Positions 9,451 to 61,080 of a stretch of DNA of 64,000 nucleotides are shown here, piece after piece. This DNA is from the human T2T-CHM13v2.0 reference genome, Homo sapiens: NCBI RefSeq assembly GCF_009914755.1, contig NC_060932.1; one strand, given 5' to 3'. The position numbers and the translations under genes were made by a program. The stretch's first letter is position 1; each line of letters begins with the position of its first letter. The notes beneath the pieces were generated by a model. It searched no databases. It was given only the letters and a program-made list of their open reading frames with translations, and was not told the DNA's origin.

Positions 9451-10834
9451 TCTGTGAGACACCACAGCTCAGTCACCTCCTCCCTCTGAAACCCCCTTCC
9501 CTTCCAGTCTCACATCCTACTTCCTTTGCCCCTCCCTTAAGCACTGGTGTTTCCAGTAGATTTCTGCCTCCACCGTTCGCTCCAAGCCTTATCACTTAAA
9601 CACTGAGGATGCCCAAATCTTCAGGCATCTCCAGCCCAGACTCCCTCCTGAGCTCTAGCAACCCCTCCTAGGCCATTTCATTTACTGCTGTGGCTTTAAT
9701 CACCAGCAAAGTACTCAATAACTTCCAAACCCATCTCTTCTTTCCAGCCTCATTACTGAGGTCGAGACCCACAAGTCCAAGTGCCCCCTATGTGTTGCCA
9801 TGAAGGTGGCAATAGTCCCCCAGGCCCCTCAAATGCTGCATGTCCAATACCACCCCCACTGAATGGCTCCATCTCCCCAGAATTACTCAACTAGGAAACA
9901 TGGTAGACATCATTCATTTATCCATTCAACTAACCTTATGGAATGCTCACCAAGTGCCAGGCTCTACATGCAGGACAGGGTGTGGAGTAAACAAAACAGA
10001 AATAGTTCTCGCCACCAGGGTTCTATCTCCAGGTGACTTTCAGCCAGTCACCTAGCCCCATCAAGGCCACTTCCCAATCTCCTCTGAAATAATCCAGTTT
10101 TCTCCACACCCACACTCACTATCTTAGTCTGGAGCACTCAATAATACTGGAAAGAAGCAGTTTAGCTGGAATCCGACTCTGAAATGTATGGTTGTGTGAC
10201 CTTCAGCAAGTTACTTTCTCTGTAACTTGCCAGATGTTTCCTCATTGACAGATAAAGATAATATCACCTACCTCAGTTTTGTCGCAAGGATTAAATGAGA
10301 CAGAAAGCCTCTAGAACAGTGTCCACAACACAACAGGCTATCTATAAACACCTGCACCCACTACAATCCCCATTTCTCCAACAGCCTCCCCCGACTTGCC
10401 TCCCATCACGGCCCACTCTACATGTGCCCAACACCTGCAGCTCCCCAGAGCCCAGGCCCTCTCCCACTTCCACCCTGTGCCATGCTTTTCCAACAGGCTT
10501 CTTCCCTGGCTTTCTCCTCCTTGTTTCCCAAGGCTCAGGTCAAGGCCCCCTCCTCCCCTGGACACCCAGGATATGGCAGATGCCCCTCTCCTGTGCTCTC
10601 TCCTCTGGGAGCCCACAGCCTCATCCCACTGAATTGGGATTACCACTCCCTTTGTCTGTTTCCCCTGTATTCTCAGGGCTTAGGACCAAGAACTGCACAC
10701 AACAGAGTCTCAATAAATACTTAGCAAACAAAAAGGACAAATGTGAGAATTATATAGAGCCAAACTTCAACTTAGTATAACCATGCACCACCACCCGCCC
10801 CTCCCCCTGCAAAAAAAAAAAAAAACTACCTTCC

Positions 10835-11084
10835 TAATAATGAGGCTACACTTGGTAAGCACTTACTATATTCCAGGCTCTGCGCTAAGCTTTGGACCTA
10901 CGTTATGTCATCTAACGTTCACAATAACCCTGTGACGTGGGTATTTTTACTCCTATTTTATAGGTGAAGGGACGGAAGGTCAGGAAAATTTTGTAAACTT
11001 GCTCCAGGTTACACAGCTAATGAGTGGTAAAGACAGGATTCAAAGCTAGGACCGTCCGACTCCAGGACCCATTCCTCACCCTGA
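10835..11084 (-). mobile_element. MIR SINE (left arm of foldback)
   Basis: Reverse complement of the MIR at 11304-11555. Confidence 0.85.
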
Positions 11085-11303
11085 CCCATTCCTCACTCAT
11101 ATGATCATTGAGACTGGATCATATCTCAATACAGAGTGAGCTGGCTCTTCGTTTTATGAGAGCACCTTTCCTGATAGCCACGTGACCTACGTTGGGATAT
11201 TAGGCAGAAACTTTCTTCAGAAGTGGGACTAAATTGTCTAAAGTCCCTTTTATATATATATAAAGCCAGCTCACTCTGTATTCAGGTCTGATCCAGTCTA
11301 GTT

Positions 11304-11555
11304 TCAGGGTGAGGAATGGGTCCTGGAGTCGGACGGTCCTAGCTTTGAATCCTGTCTTTACCACTCATTAGCTATGTAACCTTGAGCAAGTTTACAAAAT
11401 TTTCCTGACCTTCCATCCCTTCACCTATAAAATAGGAGTAAAAATACCCACGTCACAGGGTTATTGTGAACGTTAGATGACATAACGTAGGTCCAAAGCT
11501 TAGCGCAGAGCCTAGAACATAGTAAGTGCTTACCAACATAGTAGCCTCATTATTA
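11304..11555 (+). mobile_element. MIR SINE, near full length (right arm of foldback)
   Basis: Follows the MIR consensus order: ctggagtc..tttgaatcc..ccactcattagctatgtaaccttgagcaagtt..cacctataaaataggag..cagggttattgtga..catagtaagtgct. Confidence 0.85.
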
Positions 11556-11624
11556 GGAAGGTAGTTTTGGGGGGTATGCATGGTTATACTGAGCTGAAAT
11601 TTAGCTCTATATAATATATGTAAG

Positions 11625-11692
11625 TATATATATGTGTATATATGTGTGTGTGTGTGTATACACACACACACACACACACACGCACATATATA
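11625..11692. repeat. TA/(TG)7-TATA-(CA)10 compound microsatellite
   Basis: Direct read; occupies the tail position of the adjacent Alu monomer. Confidence 0.92.
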
Positions 11693-11810
11693 GGTAGAGA
11701 CTGAGTTTTGCTATGTTGCCCAGGATGGTCTCAAACTCCTGGCCTCAAGTGATCCTCCTGCCTCAGCCTCCTGAGTCGCTGGGATTACAGGCATGAGCCA
11801 CTGCACCCAA
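11693..11810 (-). mobile_element. Alu left monomer (FLAM/AluJ-like)
   Basis: gtagaga..ttgctatgttgcccaggatggtctcaaactcctggcctcaagtgatcc..gggattacaggcatgagccactgcaccca. Confidence 0.9.
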
Positions 11811-12158
11811 AGGTCTCTCATTCCAAGACTCAAGGAGTCTGTGGTTTTAAATTATAAGCTCCTTGGGTTGTTCATTTTGGTTTCCCCAGCTGAGCACAAA
11901 GTAAGCAAATGATAAACCTGTTCTGAGTGAATGAATGAACAAATGAATGAATAAAGAAGTAGATGGATGGATGAATGGATGAATGAAATGGAAAATTCAT
12001 TTTGCACATGTCCAAGTCAGTTTTACCCTTTTTGACACCCTTTCTGCTGGACTCAGGGTCATAATTCGATGCACCCAAGGAATGCAGAGAAAGGAAAACA
12101 CAGCCTGGCAATGCAAGCGCCCTCCTGCCAGCACCACCGGGGCTGCCGCGGCACTCAC

Positions 12159-12513
12159 CGACACAGGTGGTCAGTCCGGCACACGCCACGCAGGTCCAGG
12201 CAGTTGGGCTTCTCCTTGTCCTCATAGGAGCAGCTGGGCAGGATGGTTTGCCGGCGGCGCTCAGCGCACGCCTGGTCTTGGCAGGAGCAGAAGAGCATGC
12301 GGTAGGTGTACTCGCTGGGCACCCGGTCGAAGAACTGGCGCAGGGCCTTGTGGCACTTGCGGCGGTTGCAGCGCTCGGTGGGCGAGATCTCGCGGTTGCA
12401 GATGGAGATGTAGGAGGAGCGCAGCTTCTTGCAGTTGTCATTCAGGTTGCAGGCCTTGGCAGCATCCAGGCAATGGTTGCTCTTGGCGCTGACCACCGGG
12501 TCTGCCCCTGTCC
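12159..12513 (-). CDS. GFRA2: GFRA2 coding exon 4 (Cys-rich GFRalpha domain 2, ligand-binding), 355 nt
   Basis: Acceptor TTCCTCCTCCAG|GG, donor TGT CG|GTGAGT. Translates [39 protein letters not shown]...[47 protein letters not shown](R), with the family MLF and RRR motifs. Confidence 0.97.
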
Positions 12514-14769: not shown

Positions 14770-15397
14770 TGAAATGCTGTCCACTCACCACACACGGCTG
14801 CTGAACCTGAAATGTGGCTGGGTCATTTCACATGTTCACACAAGGCCTTGAAACACACACCAGATTTTGAAAATGTAATAAGAAAAAAATTATGTAGGCT
14901 GGACACGGTGGTTCACGCCTGTAATCCCAGCACTTTGGGAGGCCGAGGCAGGCAGATCATCTGAGGTCAGGAGTTCGAGGCCAGACTGGCCAACATGGCA
15001 AAACCCCGTCTCTACTAAAAATATAAAAATTAGCTGGGCGTGGTGACATGTGGTGGACTACACCCAGCTACACGGGAGACTGAGGCAGTAGAATCACTTG
15101 AATCACTTGAACCCGGGAGGCAGAGGTTGCAGTAAGCCAAGATCACACCATTGCACACCAGAGTGGGCAACAAAGGGAGACTCTGTCTCAAAAAAAAAGA
15201 AAAAAAGAAAGAAAAGAAAAAAATAATGTAAAGTATCTCATAAATTTTTACTTTGATTACACATCGAAGGGGTATTTTTGATCTATGATGTTAAACAAAT
15301 GTAGTAATAAAAATAACTTCACCTGTTTCTTTTTTGTGATTACAAGCAAATGTAGAATTATATATGTGATGCATATTATATTTCCATCAGCCAGCAA
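14770..15397 (+). mobile_element. hAT-Charlie relic (MER33-like), split by an Alu
   Basis: tgaaatgtggct..cacaccagattttgaa..[Alu]..atgtaaagtatctcat..ttgattacac..ttcacctgtttctt..gcatattatatttc. Confidence 0.75.
14897..15214 (+). mobile_element. Alu (S-type) with 16-bp TSD
   Basis: TSD agaaaaaaat(t/a)atgta at 14881-14896 and 15215-15230; internal 9-nt duplication gaatcactt. Confidence 0.95.
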
Positions 15398-16063
15398 GGC
15401 TGTATATGGCCTCACCTCCTATTCCTTTCTCCAGGCTCATTTCCCTCCATTCCAGCCACCCCAGCCTCCTGGATCTTCCTGGAACACGCCCATCACGGCG
15501 TGGCCACAGGGCCTTTGCACTTACTGTCCCCTTGGCCTGGAAGTCTCTCCCTCCCCACCACAGCCATACAACCACTCTCCTCATCTACTTCAAGACTCTG
15601 TTCAAATGTTACCTAATGTGTGAGTCCTTCCTGACCACCCTACACATAGTAACAACACCCCATGCACATTCCATGTACCCCTACTCCGACCTATTTTTCC
15701 CACAGCACTCATCACTATCTGCCATGGTATGTACTTACTTCCTCATTTGTTTGTTTGCATCAAATACAAGCTCCAGGAAGACAGGGCTGTGCTCAGTGCT
15801 GTGTCCCTAGTACCCTGTGTTTGACAGGCAGGTGCTATGCAATAGGTATTTAAGGGGTGATGGAATAAATGTATTTAGGCCAGTGTCTATTTTACAGTAA
15901 GTGCTCAAAAAATGTTGACTAATATTATTAAGCAAGCAAAATGGTACAGAGTAGGCAACAGTGATCAACACAGGACCATGTGGGGCCTAGCCCAGACCTG
16001 AAACTTGGGGGATGATCAACGAAGACTAAGCCATTCACCCAACACTTTGTCTGACCAACAATG

Positions 16064-16381
<318 letters not shown>

Positions 16382-16449
16382 AACAATAGCCCTTTAAAGG
16401 CAGAAAGAGAAAAGTGCCCTCTCTTCTTGTTATAAAAATAAAAGAGGGG

Positions 16450-16963
16450 AGGGTACATCCAGACAAAAGAATCTTATTCTGTGATAAAAGGAAATGAGCT
16501 ATCAAATCATGAAAGGACACGGAGAAAACCTACATGAAAGGAGACATGTATCACACCCTATGATTGTAAAGGTATGACACTCTGAAAAAGGGAAAACAGA
16601 GACAGTGAGATCAGTGGCTGCCAGGAGTCAGTGGGGAGTGGGGGAGGAAGACGCAGAGCATGGAGCATTTTTAGGGCAATGAAATCACTCTGTATGATAC
16701 TGTAATGGAGGATGCATGCCATTAGACGTTTGTCCAAACCCACAGAACGTACAACACCAAGAGTGAACTCTAATGTAAACTCTAGGCTTTGCCTCATAAT
16801 GATGTGTCAATGTAGGTTCAAGAATTTTAACAAATGCATCCCTCTATAGAGGGATGCTGATAGTTGAAGAGGCTGTGCCTGGGGAGGAGTAGCGGGTAGA
16901 TGGGAACTCTCTGTACCTTCCTCTCAATTTTGCTATGAACCTAAAACCACTCTTAAAAAAATA
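16450..16963 (+). mobile_element. L1M (L1MC-like) 3' UTR fragment
   Basis: tttgtccaaacccacagaacgtacaacaccaagagtgaactctaatgtaaact..tgggaactctctgtaccttcctctcaattttgctatgaacctaaaac..aaaaaataa. Confidence 0.85.
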
Positions 16964-19078
16964 AGCCTTTTACTACAAAAATGGAGGCTGGGGGAAATTA
17001 AGGCAGAAAGAGAATCAAGGTTTGTTTTCCCAATCAATCCATTAATATATCTTTAATGAGGACCTACTATGTGCCAGGCACTTCCCCAGACACTGAGGCT
17101 GCAACCCTGCCAGAGACACAGCTAGGGACGGAGGAGCAGCCCATGCCAATGTGAGTTCTGTGTCAGGGAAGTCAAGTGTGGAGAGAAAAGCATCCTGTCC
17201 AGACCTTGGTGGGGGCCGGGGGAGGGGTCCTGGAAGCAGTGACATCACTGCTGAAACCTACAGGAGGACTCAGAGGAAGTAAAGACAGCAGAAAAAGGAT
17301 CCCAGGCACAGAGGGGAGCAGGTGCAATCGCTGGGAGGAACTGCAAGCAATTCAATACGACTGAACATGGAAACCAAGGCAAGGAATGCCAAGACAAGGG
17401 CCTTCAGCCATGTTGGGGCATGTGGCCTCTCAGGCAATTCCTTGAGCTGCTACCAAACCATTCTGCCCAGGACAGAAGGATCCCAGGATGCCTGTCAACA
17501 CAAGGGCTATTGTGGGGACACTGCCTCTAAGGGACAGGTTCTCTCCCAGGCCAGCCGTAGGACGCACCTGTCAGAGGCTGGCTGGCTGCTGGCTGGAGGA
17601 GTGGAGCGGCCGGGGGCCAAGGTGAGGAGAGACAACAGGAGGGACCCCAGAGAGGAGGTTAGCAACTGCAAGCGGAACAGCAGCTAATTTAGGGCTGCGG
17701 CTGCCCCCAGGTTCCCCAGGTGCTCCGTTCCCACTCCTCTCAGCAGGTTCCTGAGCTAGTGCTGGTGTAATTATAGCCTCCGTGGCTTCCATTTGGAGCT
17801 TGAATAGTGAAAGCTTTTGCTAGGGGGCAGAACGTGTAAACTCCTGGGCCAAAACTTGGTAAATTTCCTAGGAAACAAAAAAAATCAAGAAATGCAGCTC
17901 CTACCTGGTTACCAGGAAGATACCCCGTGATCCTCCCAGCAGGAACCGGGTTTGAGTGGGCCGGATGACGGGAGAAAAGACCCCAGGAGCGGGCCTGGGC
18001 TCTGAGGCTCTGCCAAGCACCTCACCAAGGAGGCAGCCTGCGCTGCGTTTTCATTATGAGGGAGATGGTGGGGTCAGGGCTGGGCACAGGGCCAGCCACT
18101 GCCATCTGCAGCAGAAAAACTGGACACACATTCCTTCTGAGACAGCCACTGCCCTGCCACCTACCCTAAGGCTCCTGTCCCTCCTGTCAGGAAGGTGAGT
18201 TCCCACTGGGAAGAAGAAGGTGGGGGATTCTAAATACAAACCTCACCTACCAAGACCCCTCACAGTCCTTGCCTGGCACTGGGGCTACAGCCCCTGAGCT
18301 AAAATGTACAAAGGGCAGGAAATGGGGATTCAGGAAACCCAGCCCCCTCCGTCTCCCTGCCCCGATCCCCTGCACTGAGAGCTGAGACCACACAAGACCT
18401 GAGAGATATTCCGGAGCTAGAAATTGATCCCAGTCCTGGGCTGGCCCTGGAGAGCCTGAACTCAACACGTGCTCCAGCGCCAGCCCTGGTGGGTCTCCCA
18501 GGCTGGCTGAGAGCAGCCTTGATGGCCAAGGAGTAAATGGTAAACAGCTGCCCAAGGGAGAGGGAGGCGGGATTTAACACTTGGCCTTCTCCAAAACCGC
18601 AGTTAAGTCATCCTCCCAACCTCCGGCTCCTGGCCCTAGGGGACACTCTGGCTTCTTCATCTCCTCCCCTCCTACTCCCTGGGTGAGGGCCAGACCCGGG
18701 GAGCGCAGCCAGCTGGGGAGCACAGCCAGCAGCAGAGGGGCAGGACAGCTGAGGAATGCACAACCAGAGGCTGCAGCTCAGCCTCCCCAACTGCCCTGCC
18801 CCAGCCACACCCAGCCCAGCCTCTCCTGTTAATTCCTGGAGTGCTGCCCTGAGCCAAGAGCCCATCTGCACCACTAGGCTGTGATTCCAGACACTGGAAG
18901 CCCCCACCCCCAGCAGGCAGGCATATGAGTGCTCTTTAAACTCATATTCTTTAAATATTTATTTGGCTTTTATATTGAGCTGGGTTTACCAAATTTCAAT
19001 TCCCTATCTCGTTTTGGTCATATTAACAGTACCACCTCTACTAATGTTTAATTGATTTTTTCTTTAAATTCCTTAATC

Positions 19079-19375
19079 CTTTTTTTTGAATGGAGTTTCA
19101 CTCTGTCGCACGTTGTAGTGCAGTGGCATGATCTCGGCTCACTGCAGCCACTGCCTCCCAGGTTCAGGCGATTCTCCTGCCTCAGCCTCCTCAGAGTAGC
19201 TGGGATTACAGGCGCCTGCCACCACACTCAGCTAATTATTTTTTGTATTTTTTTTAGTAGAGACGGGGTTTTGCCATGTTGGCCAGATGGTCTCGAACTC
19301 CTGGCCTCTGGTGATCCGCCCGCTTTGGCCTCCCAAAGTGCTGGGATTACAGGCATGAGCCACCACACTGGACCT
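19079..19375 (-). mobile_element. Alu (S-type)
   Basis: Antisense Alu; flanked by taaat(t/c)ccttaat. Confidence 0.95.
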
Positions 19376-20681
19376 AAATCCCTTAATTCTTAAATAATGA
19401 ATCTGTTTAACTCCTTATTGACTCACCTTTTACGTTTTTCAATACCTATCTAGATTTATCCTAAATGATAACACCTATGTTGGTTCTGAATTTTTCTAAC
19501 CCATTAGAATGCAATAAAGATAAAAATACATATTCGTCGGCCCCATCTCCCATTCTAGCAGTGGTGTGCAATGCACTCGGAGGGGGAAGTCACCGGTTTA
19601 GAGAAAAGGCACTTGACCTCTGGTGCATTTGTGACTCACAGGCCCCACCGAGTCAGGAGCTCTGCGGCTGGCACCTGGGCATCTGGATTTCACAAGCTCC
19701 CTGTGATTCTGAGGCCACCTTCCAAAAACTGAGACCCAAAGCTTAGGGGAGGAGCAGGGCTGCCCTTGGCCCACTCCCCACACACACACACACACACACA
19801 CCTCACCCAGCACACAATTTAGCAAGCCTGCCCTTCACAGACGGTGGTCTGTGGCCAGCTACTGTCACCTAGGCACGCCCTTCAACTGTTTCATCCCCCT
19901 CTGCCACCTCCCAACAGAGAGGATCTTCAAGGTAGACTTTCCAATCGCAAATGTGCCTGTGGGCAGAAAGGAGAGGTTCCCCATCCTGTAAAGCTTCCCA
20001 GCCAATGGGGACCCAGGTGTTTTAACCACCCTTCCTGCCTCCCAGGAAACTGCCCCTCATCCCATTTGCAGCTGCAGTGTCCGTCCCTGAGCCCACCCTG
20101 GGTCCCTGAACCAAGATGTGGAGCTCTACTACTTAAACAGGGGTTAAAGAACGTGGGTCCTAATTCTGTCTCTGCTTCTCCAAGCTGAAGAAGACCCCAG
20201 GTAAATCTCTGTGCCTTTCTCGGTCTCATTTCTTTACCTGAATGATGACGGGTTTTGAACTGCCTAATCCCTTATATTTTGTGCCTCTCTCACTTACCCA
20301 CCCAACACACCAGTGCAAGACTCTCAGGGATGGAGGGCCAGGGAAAGCCCTGCTGTCTCACCTCATTCCTTTGAGCCGGAGCCACAGGTCCACCGTGGCA
20401 GGCTAAAAGGAGCCCACTCTGGTACTGTGCAAACTCAACAGCATGTGTGCACACCGAGGTGCACACACACACACACACGAAGACACCCAACCATACCCAC
20501 CTCTCCAGGAGCAGGACCGGAGTCCCTGCATTAGTAGCCAGTCAACAAATATTTTCATACACCAACTACATGCCAGGCCCTAAAATCCAGCTGTGTGCAG
20601 GAAAGAAAGAATCTTCCCTCTCCTACAGCTTTCACTCTAGTAAGGGAAAGACTGAGAGTAAACACAAAAATACATAAAAAA

Positions 20682-21463
<782 letters not shown>

Positions 21464-21479
21464 AAAAAAGAATGACCAG

Positions 21480-40277: not shown

Positions 40278-40763
<486 letters not shown>

Positions 40764-40809
40764 TGAGGCCAAACAATATAGGAACTTAGGAAATCACTTT
40801 TACAATAAA

Positions 40810-41045
40810 AATAATGTTAGACTGCGTTTTCCAGGTGCCAGCACTGAAAGTGCTTTAGATATAGCTCATTTCATCCTCTTAACTACTCTATGAGATAGGC
40901 ACTATTTTTCTCCCTGTTTGACTGATAAGGAGGAACAAGGAGCACAGAGACATTAAGTAGCTTGACCAAGGTCACACAGCTAACAAGCGACAGAGCCAGG
41001 GTTCACACCCAGGCAAAGCCCAAGTGCTTCACTGCTGTGAATACT
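40810..41045 (-). mobile_element. MIR
   Basis: ctcatttcatcctcttaac..gagataggcactatt..gcacagagacattaagtagcttgaccaaggtcacacagcta..agccagggttcacacccaggc. Confidence 0.75.
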
Positions 41046-42437
41046 GTCTCCCAAAATGCAGAGTGTTATCGGAACCAAGTCATTCCTAAATAAGTACTGT
41101 TGTTCCCCTTTTCCCAAGATCAGTCTTCTGTCCGCCAGATGGTGCCCCGGGGTGGTGGGGGGGCCTGTCCTTCCCTACTGCATCTAGCGCAGCCATGGGC
41201 CTAGGTATAGCTAGGCCAGTCTGATTAATGGGGTGGGGGTGGCAGGGTGGGGACAGCCTCTTCCGGAACTGATTTGGAGGGGCCCAGCCTCTTTAAGTCA
41301 ACTTGTGTAGCCTGTTTCTGCCACAGAATTCACCAGTGAGAAATCCCGAGGTGTGAGCCACTGAAACCAGAGCCAGAATGTCAGATTCTGGGAATGGAAG
41401 AAGGCTTTGCTCTTCACCTTCGGACCAAAGAACACTGAATTTCAGTGTCACCTTTGCAGAAGGCAAGAAACCTGGTCTCAAAGCCCCCATGCAGCCAAGA
41501 GTGGCAGCCCCCTGTGTAAAAACTGGTGGTGGTAATGGCAGTGAGGAAAACGGGGCCCAGGCCGTGGGATCGCCCCCAAGACAGTGAAAAGGGACCTGGA
41601 TAAGGAGTCGGGGCCCTGGGACCCACTCTGGGTCCTGCCACGAGCTTGCTGTGTGCCCTGGGAGGCCATCTCACACATCTATGCCTCAGTTTCCCTGCCA
41701 GATGGTAGGGGTGAGCCCGAATGATTGCCAGATCCTCTGCAGTTCAGACTCTAGAAGCTCAGCAGCCATGTCTTGCGGTCACATTCCCACCCCAGCCCTC
41801 TCTCCATCCTCCCCACTGCCGCCACGGGCTCTTTGCACCTGCTGTGCGCCTTGACTGCATACTGAGAGCTAAGTCCCAGGAAGGCGGAGCACAGCCCCAT
41901 GGTAAATCACGCCCACCAGCAGGGGCCAAGGAGAGGCTGAGAATCGGAAGGAAAATCCAATCCTACACACATCGCTCCTCTCAGCGATTCTTGCCCTCTC
42001 CGCAGCCCCAGGCCTGCATCAGGTTATTAAATGTTATCAAGGAACAGGGAGGAAGGACTCGCAGCCTCCCTCAGGGAGACTGCTCAACAGGCCATGGACG
42101 CTTACCTCTCAGGTAGACCCCGCCACTCACAAGAACACTACCTGGAGGCCTCCTGGCTTCCCCTGGTCAGCCCTGGGCAGAAACTACCTCTGGGCTCCCA
42201 AGACCCAGGAGAAGGTAGAATTCCCCTACAGAGAAAAGATGCAGTCTTCTATGGAAGGAAAAAAGTAAGGGTGTATTTTCTAGGCAGGGCCCAGAGGAAA
42301 GGTCTCCCGACCTGTCTGCTGGCCAGCACAGGGAACACAGTTCCTACAGTGCTGTTACCTTCTGAGGCACACAGTAGTTGCTTAACAAATGGTTGTTGAA
42401 TAAATGAATGAATAAACCATCTCAAGACTTAGAACCA

Positions 42438-43116
<679 letters not shown>

Positions 43117-43599
43117 CTAAACGCACACAGCATCGTGCTCATTTCCCTGGGATCCCATCAGCACAGTCCTCCCGTGGCCTGATGCAGTGATACAGAGGGA
43201 GCCAGTGACATGGGAAGGGCTGTTGGTGCTAAAAGGCCCAAGTGCCCCCCCGGCTGTTCTGGGTGACATTTCTGTCCTGTTCTCTCCCCTGTCCACTCTG
43301 CAGCCCACCCGAACCCGCTGCCCAGTCTCCCTTGGGTGGAAACTGAAGGCTGCCAGAAAGAAGACAAGAAACACAACTACTCAGCTCAGGCATCGAGCGC
43401 TTTAATTATTTGTACGCTACAGAGTCCGGCTCTGGGTGAAGACAGCACCTTATCTCCTGAAGAATAGAGTGCAGTACCCTCAGGACAGTATTCCTCCCTT
43501 TGCTCATGCTAGTTCTAGGAATCCAGGTTGCTAGGGAGAAGGCACCGCCTGATTCATGAGGAATACTTTGCTATTAATGATGGTAGTAATTATATGCAT

Positions 43600-45610
43600 T
43601 TCTTATTCCCATATTTAGAACATATTCGAGCCATCTCTGACTGGTCAGGGATCCCTCTCTATCTGGCTTCGCACCTGCAGCCACTTCCTCCCTCCCTCCC
43701 AGCACCTGGAGGGAGCATTTGCTCCCCTGTTCGAAGGCTCATCCCCTGGCCCACTTTGTGCCCTGGACCCAGCCCCTCCCCTTCCCAAAGGCACCATTCC
43801 ACAGAAGACCCTTCTGTCTTCTTCATGGCAACATCGCCATCACTACTGTCCGATGTTAGATTTTAAACTGCTCGATCCTCTCCCATCTTTTTTTTTTTTT
43901 AAGCATCCTTTGTTCTCTCCTCTTTACACCAAAATTCTGGAAAGAGTCATCTGCATTCATCACTCCCAATCCCCCTGTTCCTGTCTGCTCCCTAGCCAGG
44001 CTCCTCCCTAGCCAGGCTCCTCCCTCCAGCAGGAGGGCCCGGGGAAAGGTCTCCTGCCCCATACGATGGCCGATGGCCGGCACGGGGAGCATGGCTAATC
44101 CAGTGTGTCACCCTCTGAGGCACACAGCAGGTGTCTAAGAAGCTAAGAGCCTCAGCCTCAGCTTACCCTAAGGCATCTGACCCTGTTGAGGGTCCTCTCC
44201 TCTGGGATGAACCCTACCTTGTTTTCCTGCTGTTCCTCCCACCTCTCCCCAGCACCTTCTCAGCTCCCTGCAGGCTCCCTTCCCCACATCCTTAAATACC
44301 ATGGTCTCCGGGGTCTGTTACCGCCCTCCTCTCACTGCGGTCATGCACACCCCCTTGGCCCTGGTTTCTACCTGCAGGCTCATGTCCCTTCCTCAGTCTC
44401 GCTCAGACCCACTTCCTCCCTCGACTCTAGACCTGCACATCTGCAGGGTGTGGTCAATGAGAGCCATGGGCCCCAAAACAGATTCCCCATCCCCCTGCCC
44501 TCCCCTCTCCACTCTAAGACTGGCCTGATTCTTCTGAGGCCTCCATCATCTGCTCAGCTGCCTAAGACAGGAAACTGGGTGCCCTTCTTGACTCCTCCCT
44601 CCCCTCCCCTTCTCCTCTCCCATCAGTCACCAAGACCTGTGGATTCTCTCTTCTAAATAGCTCTCAGAGGGCCGGGGGCAGTGGCTCATACCTGTAAGCC
44701 CAGAACTTTGGGAAACCAAGGTGGGAGTACTGCTTGAGCCCGGGAGTTTGAGATAGGCCTGTGCAACATAACGAGACCCCATCTCTACCAAAAAAATATT
44801 TAAAAATTAGCTGGGTGTGGTAGCTCACGCCTGTAATCCCAACACTTAGGGAGGCCGAGGCGGGCCGATGGCTTGAGCCCAGGAGTTTGGGACCAGCCTG
44901 CGCAACCTAGTGAGACCCCAATAAAAATAATAAATACACAAATAAATAGCTCTTAGACCCATTTTTCCTTCCTTGCCACTGTCCTGGTTCCGCCACAACT
45001 GTTCCTGGCCTGTATCACAGCAGCAGCTTCTGGACAGTCCTCTAATCTACTCTCTCCACTGGAACCACAGAAGCATTTTGCTGAAGCACAGATCTGATCA
45101 TCGCCCTTAAAACCCTTCAGGGATCCCTCCCTGTGCCCCTAATTCTCCTCCCCACTTCCACCACCACCCACGACACACCACCTGCCACCCACCACCACTC
45201 TAAGCCACTTGCAGCTCTGTAAACAGGTTCCATTCTCACAGTGGGCCTTTCCATGCTGTTCCCTCCACCTCCCACACTCTTCCTGCCTCCCTTCACCTAT
45301 GTTCCATTTCGTGACTCTGACTCACCCTTCAGCCCCAGCTTGGAGCCTGTCTCTTCCAGGAAGACGCTTTAGATTTTACAGCAAAGACGTGGATGCCCCC
45401 TCCAAGCTGCTACCATCGCACCCTGTGTCTTCCCTCTCACAGCACTTACGCCATCAAATGACAGAAGCCCCCTTATTTATCCGCACCCCCCCAGACTCGG
45501 CTTCAGGAGGGCAGAGGCTGCATCAGCTTGCCCTCAACTGTTCCTACAACACCTAGAGTGTAGCAGACAGTACGCTCTCAATAAACATGCATTCAATTAA
45601 TAAATGAACA
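43600..45610 (+). mobile_element. L2 relic interrupted by atypical Alu
   Basis: cccatcagtcaccaagacctgtggattc; cagatctgatcat; 3' end ctcaataaacatgcattcaattaataaatgaa. Boundaries approximate. Confidence 0.55.
44670..44942 (+). mobile_element. Atypical Alu dimer of two left-arm-like monomers
   Basis: Both halves end ccagcctg..caac..gagacccc. One TSD taaatagctct(c/t)aga at 44654-44668 and 44943-44957. Confidence 0.85.
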
Positions 45611-56486: not shown

Positions 56487-56987
<501 letters not shown>

Positions 56988-57688
56988 TCAAGTGGAGAAG
57001 AACCAAGCCTTGCAGTCTTCAGATTCATGCACCAGGAGCCGCTGAAGGTTTTTGAGCAGGCAACTGACATGATGAGAATAATGTTTTAGGAAGATTGATC
57101 TGATGACTGTGTGAGGGATGGAGACCAGGGGCCAATTAGGAGGTGATTGTAACAGTCCCAGGCAGAGGTAATGAGGGTCCAACAGGGAGTGGCAGTGGGC
57201 GTGGACAGAGGGAGAGGGTTGTCAGAGGCAGTGTAAGGATGAATTGGCATGATGCTGGAACACAGGGAGAGTCGCCAGGCCAAGACAAAGTGACCAGCCT
57301 AGTGGCTCAGCCTTTGTCCTTGGAAAAATAATAATTAAAGTAGCCAAATTTATGGCTAGATACAAGTTAATACTCCTTCAAATTCCTATAATAACTCGAT
57401 GGCTATTATTAGGTACTATTAATAGCCTCATTTTCAAGTGAGAGAGGAGAGGCAAGAGAAGTGATTCAACTGCCCAAGGTCATATTTTAAGTGGCAGAAT
57501 CTGGATTCAAACTCGAGCAGTCAGGATCCAGCACCCCCAACTGGTCAATTCTGTGCCTTGTATCGGACAAGAAAAGTGGCGGCTCTCCAGGCCCACACAT
57601 GTTCATATTCCCCTTCACAACACCTGAGATATCCTCTTCCTCCCTTCCCTATCCACAAATAGTGTGAAAAAAATCATGAGAATCAAAG

Positions 57689-58045
<357 letters not shown>

Positions 58046-58054
58046 TGAGAGTGA

Positions 58055-58390
<336 letters not shown>

Positions 58391-59163
58391 TAAAAACTAA
58401 ATAAAATATTTACTGTGGACCTTGTCTGGCATAAGCTTTGGAGTTCAAGTCTAGAGCCTAGAAAGGATTCTGTCAGGTGCCCAGCTTGGTGCCCAGCTAA
58501 GTGCCCTGGGCCTGGGTCATGCATGAGCTTTTCCAGCCCCTACCTCCCTCCTACTGGCAAGTTGACCCCTCGCCAACATCCCCTCCACACTCCAGATTCC
58601 AGAGTCCCAGCCTGGAAGGAGCACACTAGTCTGGCAATGGAGACCAGCAGGAATTTAAATAAACCATCTGATCCCAAAGAATGAACAGGGCTGCTGGGGC
58701 AGGCTGGGTGGGACTGGGCTAGGAGGGAAGAAATGCATACTGCACTCAGGGCCATTGATTTCTCTAATTGATTTCAGTCAATGTTCTCAGTGCTTCATCA
58801 TTCTCTTTAGAGGTAGGCACCGGCAGGAGGTGGAGCTCTGGTTTTACCCAGCTTCTCCCCAGGGCCTCGCAGACCTCTCTGCAGCCCCACCCATCTCAGG
58901 GAGTCCTGCAAGCCCCAGGGTAGCCCATTAGAGAGGGAGGAACCTGCAGCTGCTGCAGCTCCCATGGGGGTTGGACAGAGTGGGTAGACAGTGGAAGCAG
59001 ATGGGAAGTTGCTCTGACAGGAAGCCATCAAGACCACCTTATGTGACTATTGTACTTCCCGGCTGTACAAAGCATCTTCCACATCCATGATCTTGAAGTC
59101 CTTACAACATCCCTGGGAGGGGGGCGTGAGAGAATTAATTTCCCTTCTCAGACAACAAACTGA

Positions 59164-59513
<350 letters not shown>

Positions 59514-61080
59514 TCAGGGAACAAACTCACTCTTGAAGACCACTCATGACATGACCAAGGTTACAACATAGCCAGCAAGTGGCAGAGCTAAGGACTCATC
59601 CAGTGGGCTTTCCAATTCCAACTTGGCTTCTCTCACAGGCCAGAAATCAGGCATCCACCTACTACAGGCCTGGGCTTCTCTGCTGCTTTGTCCCACAATA
59701 GGGGCTCATGGAGGGCAAGGAAAAAGCACTCAAGTCATCTGGCATCGTCTTTGTGTCATCCAAGACAGACCTGGGAAGGGCTGTTTCTCTGAATTCCTGT
59801 TTCACCAGAAATCCCAGACTTCTCGAGAAAACTGTGAAACCTCATTCCTCGCCTTCCCCCTTCACAGCTGCCCGATAGCAGCAGGAGCTAAGCTAGTAAA
59901 CCACCCTTCTGTTGAGCTATCCTAAGCCTAAAATATCCTAGCTGGGTGTCTGGTCTGCCCCTGCTGCCCCAGAGACACTGCACTCCCTCTGTAGTTGGCA
60001 CTATACTGGCTACACCCCAGCCTTGTCCTGAAGTTGGTGCTGTGTTTGCAGATGAAAGCTGCCTGGAGAAACCTCACAGCTTCTCTTCTGGGCACACACG
60101 CCCACCTCATCTCTCAAGACACTGGCCATCTGCCAGGTACCCGAGGTCAAGGCAGAATCAAGGAAGAGGGACAATGACTCCTCCTGCCAAGCCTTGGGGA
60201 GCCGGCTCCTGCTGCCTGACGCCCCCCGCAGAGAGCTCTCAGTCCCAACAGCTCCACAGGCAGTATCTATTTAGCCAAGGGCTAGGTCTGAGCTGGACTG
60301 TCACTCAAAAGGCACAGGTCCGACTGCAGGACCCAGAGGGCACCTCCCAAGGGGCTGTGGCCAGAAAACAGAAACTAGTGTTTCTCTCTGAGGACACATG
60401 CCTTCCCTGGGCCCAACCCAGAGTTTGGCCAGATGAGCACATTTACCTGTATGCCTACCCTCTCACCTTGACCTTTCATTCTGGAAACTTCTTTTCCCAT
60501 CATCTAGAACTTTCTCTCCTTCCCCCCACTGTCCCCATGCACTCCTGCTTTCCTGGTATCCTATCTCTCTTTCCAGAATAGGAAACCCTGGGTGGCAGAG
60601 CAATGTTTAACCTCAAAGAATGAATTGCTAATGGTAGAATTTTAGTCATCACCTGCTGTAGGTTGGAAGGAGCCCTCCATGACAACAATAATGAACTACC
60701 AGCAAGTGCACGGCCTTCAACAGCCTTCGGTGCTTTTTTCTGCAAGTTTGCCTCCCTTGGGCCTCCCAAGAGCTTTCTGAAATCAGTATCTCTCACATGG
60801 GAAGATGTATAGTCCAGGCATCAAGTGATCTGTCCCACTACGTGACAGCGATCACACAGTCAGGAAGCTGCTGATCTAGGACTGGGCCAAGGTGTCCTAA
60901 CTAACCCCAAATTCCCTATTTGTGAGTTAGCTTTTGCTTAAATGCTTTAGTAAAATAAAATAAAATACTTTTTAATTTTAAGAACAAAGACAATTTCTTA
61001 TAAATATCTCCAGTGACAGGATCTTGTTTGACTCAGGGGCTGCATTCTACATCACAGATAACGCGGACAATTGAGTGGCC

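What the first reader, a model, noticed from the sequence alone, without database searches (positions are those of the whole stretch)
10749..11615. ~870-bp near-perfect foldback built from an ancient MIR, 0.55 kb downstream of the exon 4 donor
Seen: 10822-11084 (263 nt) pairs with 11304-11568 (265 nt) with only 5 substitutions and one small indel. Outer (39 bp) and inner (36 bp) stems flank it, around a 117-nt loop. Known: MIRs stopped transposing long ago and independent copies are heavily diverged, so ~97% identity cannot come from two insertions. The symmetry also extends past the MIR ends. Inference: a local inverted duplication that is either recent or kept uniform by arm-to-arm gene conversion. 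In GFRA2 pre-mRNA it would form ~340 bp of dsRNA, more perfect than typical Alu pairs. That makes it a candidate ADAR hyper-editing site, Drosha/Dicer substrate or splicing modulator; in DNA it could extrude as a cruciform.
Basis: partly seen in the sequence, partly recalled or inferred. Interest (0 to 1): 0.85.

Follow-up and report, generated by a model that had tools for sequence, protein, structure and literature searches.

The report
Intronic inverted duplication forming long hairpin
A stretch of about 350-400 bases in an intron of the human GFRA2 gene, including an ancient SINE copy, has been copied backwards next to itself, so the DNA and its transcript can fold into a very long hairpin; it is a real and striking but probably functionless example of a known kind of mutation.

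Summary
The foldback is real. Arms 10749-11146 and 11264-11615 pair around a 117-nt spacer. The core (10822-11084 / 11304-11568) differs by 5 substitutions plus one small complex indel. The GFRA2-sense RNA folds with 339 arm-to-arm pairs, MFE -650.7 kcal/mol against -244.7 for shuffles.

The core is one old copy of a dispersed repeat. Sixteen other genomic copies match it at only 62-91%, while the arms are 98% alike. The paired flanks and the spacer are single-copy in the genome. Two independent insertions are therefore excluded; it is a local inverted duplication.

The right arm lies between two TA-rich tracts. I infer it is the new copy, made by a replication template switch at a (TA)n tract. 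Arm divergence of 1.9% suggests roughly 10-20 million years if the arms were never homogenised.

The short flank stems look more diverged (7/75 against 5/261, p=0.006), but their mismatches are clustered, so gene conversion is neither shown nor excluded. No orthologues or RNA data were available. ADAR editing is plausible; the Dicer, splicing and cruciform roles are untested speculation.

Comparable structures number in the hundreds in human pre-mRNAs (PMC7006430). Interest is modest.

The parts
10749..10787 (.). Outer stem, left half. Single-copy sequence that pairs with 11577-11615.
   Evidence: I2: 39 nt, 90%; 4 mismatches, all transitions, at 10761, 10765, 10770 and 10773; the 10640-10810 query, which contains this stem, matched only itself.
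10788..10821 (.). Left-arm-only low-complexity tract (C-rich run, then the start of an A15 run at 10811-10825). The right arm has only 8 nt here (11569-11576).
   Evidence: alignment gap.
10822..11084 (-). Core of the left arm: an old dispersed-repeat copy (MIR by my recall of the family). On the + strand it is antisense relative to the 16 aligned family copies.
   Evidence: 16 dispersed hits at 68-94%, all inside window 10858-11075; about 66% identity to the majority consensus of the 16 copies.
11085..11110 (.). Left-arm-only 26 nt. It begins with a 12-nt direct repeat (11085-11096) of 11068-11079. The right arm has 4 nt here (11300-11303).
11111..11146 (.). Inner stem, left half. Single-copy sequence that pairs with 11264-11299.
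   Evidence: I3: 36 nt, 92%; 3 mismatches within 6 nt (11122, 11124, 11127); no other genomic match.
11147..11263 (.). 117-nt unique spacer (the loop). It ends in a (TA)6 tract at 11251-11262 that abuts the right arm.
   Evidence: single-copy in the genome.
11264..11615 (+). Whole right arm: inner stem 11264-11299, core 11304-11568, outer stem 11577-11615. I infer this is the newly made inverted copy, because TA-rich tracts flank it on both sides.
   Evidence: 400-column gapped alignment to the left arm at 83%, gaps included. That this arm is the new copy is inference, not shown.
11616..11694 (.). Compound (TA)n(TG)n(CA)n microsatellite abutting the right arm. Proposed as the remainder of the TA tract into which the copy was inserted.
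   Evidence: (I4-I12 self-pairing); only sub-threshold hits to microsatellite-derived miRNA families.
12157..12158 (-). GT of the 5' splice site of the GFRA2 exon at 12159-12513. It fixes the position of the foldback 543 nt into the intron.
   Evidence: (GTGAGT read on the - strand) and the hub annotation.

Best explanation
This is a genuine, single-locus local inverted duplication inside GFRA2 intron 4. About 350-400 bp was copied in reverse-complement orientation 117 nt away from itself. The copied piece was one heavily decayed ancient SINE copy (MIR, named from recall) plus about 70 nt of unique sequence on each side.

The most likely mechanism is a replication-associated template switch or fold-back. 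This is the '3-2-1-4' type of the four-point template-switch model, but much longer than usual. In my reading the nascent strand left its template in a (TA)n tract (about 11262), copied the opposite strand from 11146 back to 10749, and returned to the TA tract (11616). Hence the right arm is bracketed by TA repeats.

The event is inferred to lie in the primate lineage. Core arm divergence of 1.9% gives about 10-20 My if there was no later homogenisation, with a wide error.

Since then both arms have picked up point changes. Low-complexity runs have expanded or contracted, and one arm has gained a small tandem duplication.

As part of the GFRA2 pre-mRNA the element should fold into a hairpin of about 340 bp with helices of 153 and 79 bp. 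Such RNA is the textbook substrate for promiscuous nuclear ADAR editing, and it is removed with the intron. I judge it most likely a tolerated, selectively near-neutral by-product with no dedicated function.

Shown: the structure, its uniqueness in the genome, the repeat-family origin of the core, the folding energy and the position in the intron. Inferred: which arm is new, the mechanism, the age, editing and neutrality.
For: - Structure and significance.
- Single locus: the left-arm query finds only itself and the other arm at full length. The other 16 of 18 hits are 35-168 nt at 68-94% and all lie within the repeat core.
- Flank and spacer uniqueness: the query 10640-10810 (which contains the outer stem) and the query 11085-11303 (inner stems and spacer) match nothing else in the 3.1-Gb assembly.
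- Old repeat: each arm is about 66% identical to the majority consensus of 16 dispersed copies, but 98% identical to the other arm.
- Both arms have changed since duplication. Polarising the 5 core differences on that consensus gives 3 derived states in the right arm and 2 in the left. A perfect artefactual palindrome would not show this.
- TA tracts on both sides of the right arm only: (TA)6 at 11251-11262 and TA/TG repeats from 11616.
- Mechanism precedent: template switching creates inverted repeats and whole hairpins in one event in primates. Type 3-2-1-4 with its mirror makes up 31% of high-confidence human-chimp events (PMC5453318, passages read; PMC10710096, passages read).
- No known RNA family in the foldback.
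- Context: long, nearly perfect inverted duplicates are tolerated in pre-mRNAs but purged from mRNAs, and some of the few expressed ones are heavily edited (PMC7006430).
Against: - No orthologous sequence, population data or RNA data could be examined, so age, polarity of the event, editing and neutrality are all inferred.
- Published template-switch events are mostly tens of bp, whereas this copy is 352 nt.
- The junctions show at most 1-7 nt of TA-type microhomology, and I could not reconstruct an exact priming site.
- The flank stems are significantly more diverged than the core when sites are counted singly (7/75 against 5/261, p=0.006; p=0.018 if the two indel-adjacent mismatches are added to the core). 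A single clean duplication followed by uniform decay does not predict this.
- CpG observed/expected in the foldback is 0.44, against 0.16-0.25 in the flanking intron stretches and the two introns measured. It lies in the top 9.5% of 867-nt windows. This is unexplained.
- 7 of 9 transition differences are G.U wobbles in the GFRA2-sense RNA. This could hint at selection for pairing, although the one-sided binomial is only about 0.09 and transcription-associated mutation asymmetry would give the same result.
Confidence: 0.6

Rival explanations
1. The duplication is old (roughly as old as the 9% divergence of the flank stems, i.e. early anthropoid or older). The 263-nt core has been kept 98% alike by arm-to-arm gene conversion, or by repeated template switching that re-copies one arm from the other. 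The 36-39-nt flank stems are cut off from the core by indels and are too short for recombination, so they drifted apart.
For: - Core 5/261 against flank stems 7/75 mismatches, Fisher p=0.006.
- The boundaries between low and high divergence coincide with the two large arm-specific indels.
- Template switching is reported to maintain as well as create hairpins (bioRxiv 10.1101/2021.04.15.439925, search-listing abstract only). Conversion of near-perfect into perfect inverted repeats is described in PMC5453318.
- Raised CpG content of the arms would fit GC-biased repair between arms.
Against: - The flank mismatches are clustered: 4 within 13 nt and 3 within 6 nt. They may be two multi-nucleotide events or error-prone synthesis near the junctions. 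Counted as events, the contrast largely disappears.
- 4 of the 5 polarised core differences are strong-to-weak changes, so there is no GC-biased signature in what remains.
- The spacer, which cannot be converted, has an even higher CpG observed/expected of 0.73.
- No orthologues were examined.
Confidence: 0.25
2. The hairpin is a selected functional RNA element of the GFRA2 pre-mRNA. Candidates are an ADAR-binding or editing platform, a source of small RNAs, or a structure that modulates use of the exon 4 donor or intron 4 processing.
For: - It lies 543 nt downstream of the donor.
- The sense RNA pairs better than the antisense: MFE -650.7 against -622.5, longest helix 153 against 98 bp, and 7 of 9 transition differences are G.U in the sense strand.
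- All 4 polarised core transitions are C>T on the sense strand, which preserves pairing as G.U.
- CpG is not as depleted as in the flanking intron sequence.
Against: - The sample is tiny (p about 0.06-0.09), and C>T / A>G excess on the non-transcribed strand is a known neutral asymmetry of transcribed regions (my recall, not checked in a paper here).
- No Rfam family, and no annotated miRNA in the hub table.
- No paper links GFRA2 to such an element.
- Long perfect hairpins are poor substrates for somatic human Dicer (established knowledge, recalled).
- Such structures are on the whole selected against rather than for (PMC7006430).
Confidence: 0.08
3. It is an assembly or sequencing artefact: a chimeric foldback read carried into the T2T-CHM13 consensus.
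For: Foldback chimeras are a known long-read artefact (general knowledge). Only one assembly was seen here.
Against: - The arms are not identical. There are 12 substitutions, one 2-nt indel and two larger length differences (34 against 8 nt, 26 against 4 nt), plus a unique 117-nt spacer.
- Derived changes occur in both arms.
- Artefactual foldbacks are perfect and have no spacer.
Confidence: 0.02
4. It is a non-autonomous DNA transposon (MITE-like) with long terminal inverted repeats, or two independent insertions of the same SINE.
For: It has palindromic termini, and the arms contain SINE sequence.
Against: - No second copy of the arms' flanks or of the spacer anywhere in the genome.
- No target-site duplication seen by eye at 10748/10749 and 11615/11616.
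- Independent copies of this SINE match at 62-91%, not 98%.
- The symmetry runs into unique sequence.
Confidence: 0.02

Closest known systems
Template-switch mutations of the four-point model, inverted-repeat-creating type 3-2-1-4 (Loytynoja and Goldman 2017, PMC5453318; Monttinen et al. 2023, PMC10710096)
   Same: A reverse-complement copy of adjacent sequence placed close by, which creates a hairpin in one step. The order of the inferred switch points (10749 < 11146 < 11263 < 11616) matches 3-2-1-4. Later point mutations then spoil a stem that began perfect, as those papers report for most loci (passages read).
   Different: The copied fragment is 352 nt. The published sets are short events; the filtering passage read mentions a 14-bp length cut-off, and I did not see a length distribution. 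The ancestral state was not observed here. No miRNA is known from this locus.
Long, nearly perfect inverted duplicated sequences in human pre-mRNAs (Barak et al. 2020, PMC7006430)
   Same: An intramolecular inverted duplicate inside a RefSeq pre-mRNA, intronic, about 97% identical, and a potential ADAR or dsRNA-sensor substrate.
   Different: The uninterrupted high-identity block is 263-265 bp, below their 300-bp cut. With the flank stems the gapped alignment is 400 columns at 83%. Their Table S8 has no row at the coordinates where I expect this locus. Those coordinates are my own estimate from recall. Of the 7 chr8 rows only 2 were displayed, and neither was in GFRA2.
Inverted Alu pairs, the usual human source of intronic dsRNA and A-to-I editing and an at-risk motif for DNA instability
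   Same: Two SINE copies in opposite orientation within one intron that can pair in RNA and in single-stranded DNA.
   Different: Alu pairs arise from independent insertions and are typically 73-88% complementary and about 1-5 kb apart, as in this window. Here one SINE copy was duplicated together with its flanks. The arms are 98% alike, 219 nt apart (117 nt counting the inner stem), and the family is ancient.
Large palindromes homogenised by arm-to-arm gene conversion (sex-chromosome palindromes; Warburton et al. 2004 class of large inverted repeats; recalled)
   Same: Arms around a unique spacer, with high arm identity that could reflect concerted evolution.
   Different: Those arms are kilobases to megabases long and over 99% identical, and conversion is documented from cross-species comparison. 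This one is sub-kilobase, and conversion is only one of two readings.
Genome-wide inverted duplicates catalogued with Inverted Repeats Finder (Chen et al. 2017, PMC5398296)
   Same: The same structural class: two reverse-complement copies plus a spacer. About 63% of the inverted duplicates they folded form stable hairpins (passages read).
   Different: That study tested intergenic, mostly short duplicates. This one is genic and lies far out in the long, high-identity tail. The locus is not named there (0 occurrences of GFRA2).

Membership tests
MIR (mammalian-wide interspersed repeat) SINE, for the arm core | Belongs to a dispersed, high-copy, strongly diverged repeat family | tested here: met
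   16 hits on 10 chromosomes at 68-94% over 35-168 nt (a lower bound, since only the best candidates are scored); all 16 align to the arm at 62-91%.
MIR (mammalian-wide interspersed repeat) SINE, for the arm core | Match to the curated MIR consensus (Dfam/Repbase) | not testable with these tools
   No repeat library is available. The majority consensus of the 16 copies agrees with my recollection of MIR. The name rests on recall.
Template-switch mutation, type 3-2-1-4 | Reverse-complement copy of nearby sequence that creates an inverted repeat | tested here: met
Template-switch mutation, type 3-2-1-4 | Ancestral or outgroup sequence lacks the copy; one event explains the change better than a linear alignment | not testable with these tools
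   No primate orthologues could be fetched. The own-genome search reports no relatives.
Template-switch mutation, type 3-2-1-4 | Short copied fragment (tens of bp), as in the published sets | tested here: not met
   The copied fragment is 352 nt. So it works like such an event, but it is outside the described size range.
Palindrome under arm-to-arm gene conversion | Arms more alike within a species than orthologous arms between species | not testable with these tools
   No orthologues.
Palindrome under arm-to-arm gene conversion | Divergence uneven along the arms, with a homogenised tract against unconverted edges | tested here: inconclusive
   5/261 against 7/75, p=0.006. However, the 7 edge mismatches form two clusters that may be two events.
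Long, nearly perfect inverted duplicate of Barak et al. 2020 | Over 300 bp and over 96% identity by BLAST within one pre-mRNA | tested here: not met
   The high-identity block is 265 columns at 96.6%. The full gapped alignment is 400 columns at 83%.
ADAR hyper-editing substrate | Long near-perfect intramolecular duplex on the transcribed strand | tested here: met
   339 arm-to-arm pairs, with helices of 153 and 79 bp in the GFRA2-sense RNA. This is in silico only.
ADAR hyper-editing substrate | Clusters of A-to-G mismatches in RNA-seq reads | not testable with these tools
   No RNA data. The literature searches found nothing for this locus.
DNA transposon / MITE with terminal inverted repeats | Several copies in the genome and a target-site duplication | tested here: not met
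   The unit is single-copy. No duplication was seen at the ends (by eye).
microRNA or other curated RNA family | Reaches the Rfam gathering score | tested here: not met
   the only hit lying mainly within the foldback is plant MIR7533, 25.3 bits against a gathering score of 230.

The most novel reading that the evidence does not exclude
A sub-kilobase palindrome that has been kept nearly perfect since before the ape radiation by arm-to-arm conversion or repeated template switching. In this reading the reason is that the 340-bp duplex in the GFRA2 sense transcript is used, for example as a neuronal ADAR platform or a regulator of intron 4 processing. The hints are the excess of G.U-preserving changes on the sense strand, the retained CpGs and the sharper divergence of the short flank stems.
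Probability: 0.08. Interest if true: 0.65.

Novelty: new member of a known kind. Interest (0 to 1): 0.3.

Why it matters
If the plain reading holds, this is a clean, datable natural example of a large template-switch-type inverted duplication seeded at a (TA)n tract. It shows how a long dsRNA-forming element can appear in one step inside a neuronal gene and be tolerated because it is intronic.

It would be a convenient test locus for three things:
- ADAR hyper-editing of a non-Alu substrate.
- The stability of a 98%-identical inverted repeat with a spacer of about 120-220 nt in human DNA.
- Whether sub-kilobase palindromes undergo concerted evolution, using ape telomere-to-telomere genomes.

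It does not by itself change what is known about GFRA2 or about dsRNA biology.

Tried and rejected
- Rfam E-value scan of 10400-12000. Only one hit lies mainly within the foldback, plant MIR7533 at 25.3 bits against a gathering score of 230. The remaining hits fall in, or run into, the neighbouring microsatellite and Alu-like piece, and none reaches its gathering score.
- Own-genome searches for further copies of the arm flanks and spacer found none. This rejects the transposon or MITE reading.
- A sensitive BLAST of the right arm against the 64-kb window found no other family copy inside the window at E<=1e-3. The family evidence therefore comes from other chromosomes.
- Literature searches:
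  - GFRA2 + 'inverted repeat': 2 papers, both irrelevant from the listing.
  - GFRA2 + A-to-I + intron: 1 paper, in which GFRA2 appears only as a plasma protein.
  - GFRA2 + dsRNA: 8 papers, irrelevant from titles and abstract starts.
  - The dsRNAscan preprint PMC11838218 has 0 mentions of GFRA2 in its main text. Its supplementary tables of about 5.1 million predicted dsRNAs were not seen and may well list this locus.
- Barak et al. Table S8 was searched for GFRA2 (0 hits; the rows shown carry coordinates only) and for number prefixes around my recalled hg19/hg38 position. There was no chr8 row there. Five of the 7 chr8 rows were not displayed.
- Gene conversion was inferred from uneven divergence and then downgraded, because the flank mismatches are clustered.
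- I attempted by eye to reconstruct an exact fold-back priming site in the spacer. Only a 4-nt match was found and the predicted junction does not fit, so I abandoned it.
- A first attempt to search a paper title failed on the four-word limit and was re-sent in shorter form.
Full report
**1. The observation**

The sequence at 10749-11615 is a foldback exactly as described. The repeat finder reports four stems:
- a 233-nt stem at 98% complementarity (10852-11084 / 11304-11536);
- a perfect 28-nt stem (10822-10849 / 11541-11568);
- a 39-nt outer stem at 90% (10749-10787 / 11577-11615);
- a 36-nt inner stem at 92% (11111-11146 / 11264-11299), with 117 nt between its arms.

A gapped alignment of the left half against the reverse complement of the right half and a per-site count give the differences:
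- 5 substitutions in the 261 ungapped core positions;
- one complex difference at 10850-10851 (a 2-nt indel with 2 adjacent mismatches);
- 4 mismatches in the outer stem;
- 3 mismatches in the inner stem.

Two larger arm-specific segments separate core from flank stems. One is a C-rich/A15 low-complexity tract, 34 nt in the left arm (10788-10821) against 8 nt in the right. The other is 26 nt in the left arm (11085-11110) against 4 nt in the right.

Folded as the GFRA2-sense (minus-strand) RNA, the 886-nt region has an MFE of -650.7 kcal/mol, against -244.7 +/- 9.4 for 20 dinucleotide shuffles, z = -43. As single-stranded DNA the values are -382.8 against -86.5, z = -61.

My own count on the MFE structure gives 339 arm-to-arm pairs, with uninterrupted helices of 153 and 79 bp.

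Of the 25 inverted pairs of 60 nt or more within 5 kb of each other in the whole 64-kb window, the other 24 are 73-88% complementary and 942-4804 nt apart.

The donor of the exon at 12159-12513 is GTGAGT starting at 12158 on the minus strand. The hairpin therefore begins 543 nt into the intron. By the hub's exon list this is the fourth exon of NM_001495.5.

**2. What the arms are made of**

Searching the window's own 3.1-Gb assembly with the left arm returned 18 matches. These were the arm itself, the other arm at full length, and 16 short matches on ten chromosomes. The short matches are 35-168 nt at 68-94% identity, and all lie inside query positions 110-327 (window 10858-11075).

I fetched all 16 and aligned them to the arm. 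They match at 62-91%. Each arm is about 66% identical to their majority consensus over about 270 columns, yet the arms are 98% identical to each other.

The core is therefore one old, decayed copy of a dispersed repeat. The consensus looks like MIR as I remember it. No repeat library was available, so the name rests on recall.

The sequence outside the core is single-copy in the genome. This covers the query 10640-10810, which contains the outer stem, and the query 11085-11303, which holds the inner stems and spacer.

Symmetry that runs from an old repeat into unique DNA on both sides can only come from a local inverted duplication of one segment. Two independent insertions are excluded, and so is a transposon family.

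**3. Not an artefact**

The arms differ by 12 substitutions, one 2-nt indel and two larger length differences, around a unique spacer.

Polarising the 5 core differences on the family consensus gives 3 derived states in the right arm and 2 in the left. One of the five rests on a weak plurality column. Both arms have therefore aged independently, which a chimeric foldback read would not show.

**4. How it probably arose (inference)**

Only the right arm is bracketed by TA-rich sequence. A (TA)6 tract at 11251-11262 ends the spacer, and a (TA)n(TG)n(CA)n microsatellite starts at 11616. The arm's own outer end also runs into TATATAA. The left arm has no such flanks.

The simplest reading is that 11264-11615 is the new copy, inserted into a pre-existing TA tract. 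Replication stalled or broke there, the nascent strand copied the opposite strand from 11146 back to 10749, and it returned to the TA tract.

This gives a switch-point order of 10749 < 11146 < 11263 < 11616. That is the '3-2-1-4' event type of the four-point template-switch model. With its mirror type it accounts for 31% of high-confidence human-chimp events, and it creates an inverted repeat (PMC5453318, passages). The same process is reported to generate whole hairpins in one step in primates (PMC10710096, passages).

What differs is size: 352 nt against the short events of those studies. I could not reconstruct an exact priming site.

**5. Age, and the gene-conversion question**

Core divergence is 5/261 = 1.9%. 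I used recalled per-lineage rates of 0.5-1.0e-9 per site per year. On those rates this corresponds to about 10-19 My, and to roughly 3-45 My once the Poisson error on five events is allowed for. This is my own arithmetic and assumes no homogenisation.

The flank stems are 9.3% diverged (7/75). The contrast with the core is significant when sites are counted singly. Fisher p is 0.006, or 0.018 if the two indel-adjacent mismatches are added to the core.

That would fit an older duplication whose long core is homogenised by arm-to-arm conversion or re-copying, while the 36-39-nt edges, isolated by indels, drift.

However, the 7 edge mismatches form two tight clusters: 10761-10773 and 11122-11127. 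Each lies 12-25 nt from a duplication junction. They may be two multi-nucleotide events, or error-prone synthesis at the junctions. Counted as events, the contrast fades. The question stays open, and orthologues would settle it.

**6. What it would do**

In the pre-mRNA it should form a hairpin of about 340 bp. Long near-perfect duplexes are the classic substrate of promiscuous ADAR editing (established knowledge).

Barak et al. report three things (PMC7006430, passages):
- Such structures are tolerated in pre-mRNAs but purged from mRNAs.
- 197 human examples above 300 bp and 96% identity exist within RefSeq transcripts.
- Of the 20 that are expressed, seven are edited strongly enough to bring arm identity below the 96% cut-off.

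This locus falls just below their length cut: 265 columns at 96.6%, or 400 columns at 83% with the edges. It is not in their Table S8 at the coordinates I estimate.

No RNA data were available, so editing is plausible but unshown.

The Dicer or Drosha, splicing and cruciform roles have no support here:
- Rfam finds no family.
- The hub table lists no miRNA in the window.
- Three GFRA2-specific literature searches found nothing.
- The 117-219-nt distance between the arms makes extrusion in duplex DNA kinetically unfavourable (general knowledge). Hairpin formation in single-stranded replication intermediates remains possible.

**7. Loose ends that keep a bolder reading alive**

- 7 of the 9 transition differences are G.U wobbles in the sense RNA and A.C mismatches in the antisense. 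Accordingly the sense RNA folds 28 kcal/mol better.
- All 4 polarised core transitions are C>T on the sense (non-transcribed) strand. A neutral transcription-associated strand asymmetry explains this as well as selection for pairing does, and the numbers are small.
- CpG observed/expected is 0.44 in the foldback: 0.51-0.56 in the arm cores and 0.73 in the spacer. In the flanking intron stretches and the two introns measured it is 0.16-0.25. This puts the foldback in the top 9.5% of 867-nt windows, alongside the exon, the promoter island and one other region. The arms share 6 CpGs, so the counts are not independent.

**8. Verdict**

This is a real, single-locus local inverted duplication, and a new example of a known kind of structure. 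Its origin is most likely by template switching at a TA tract, and it most likely has no selected function. The functional proposals are untested, and the interest was overrated.

Noticed in passing
window 11616-11694: A compound (TA)n(TG)n(CA)n microsatellite that is itself a 34-nt/34-nt hairpin (I4). It gives sub-threshold Rfam hits to microsatellite-derived miRNA families (mir-297 65.5 bits against a gathering score of 90; mir-466 47.2 against 85). Probably just repeat composition.
   Followed up: partly
window 11695-11811 (- strand): An Alu-monomer-like piece directly after the microsatellite. The Metazoa_SRP hit is 42.4 bits, below the gathering score of 70. It pairs at 81% with 14908-15015 (I12). 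If the microsatellite grew from its tail, the duplication post-dates this primate-specific insertion.
   Followed up: no
window 10749-11615 against the flanking intron sequence: CpG observed/expected is 0.44 in the foldback (arm cores 0.51-0.56, spacer 0.73), against 0.16-0.25 in the flanking intron stretches and the two introns measured. This is the top 9.5% of 867-nt windows. Unexplained. It could reflect germline hypomethylation, GC-biased repair between arms, or chance.
   Followed up: partly
window 10870, 10874, 10973, 11014 and partners 11518, 11514, 11415, 11374: All four polarised core transitions are C>T on the GFRA2-sense (non-transcribed) strand. They are spread over both arms, and one is at a CpG. 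In total 7 of 9 transition differences are G.U in the sense RNA. This fits either a transcription-associated asymmetry or weak selection for pairing.
   Followed up: partly
window 11179-11193 and 10895-10904: The spacer carries a CACGTG E-box (11179-11184). It overlaps a 10-mer, GACCTACGTT (11184-11193), that also occurs in the left arm (10895-10904) and, reverse-complemented, in the right arm. This is possibly chance. My rough hand estimate of the expectation is about 0.06; no call computed it.
   Followed up: no
window 11068-11079 and 11085-11096: A 12-nt direct repeat spaced 17 nt apart at the inner end of the left core. The second copy opens the 26-nt left-arm-only segment, which suggests a small tandem duplication after the inverted duplication.
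   Followed up: no
window 10546-10715: A RefSeq-flagged enhancer (hub table) ends 34 nt before the outer stem. This stretch is GC-rich (0.56-0.61) but almost free of CpG. Any relation to the foldback is unknown.
   Followed up: no
window 14861-21479, 40294-44950, 56598-59517: Clusters of inverted pairs 66-256 nt long at 73-88% complementarity. They look like ordinary inverted Alu pairs and give the local baseline for intronic dsRNA potential in GFRA2.
   Followed up: no
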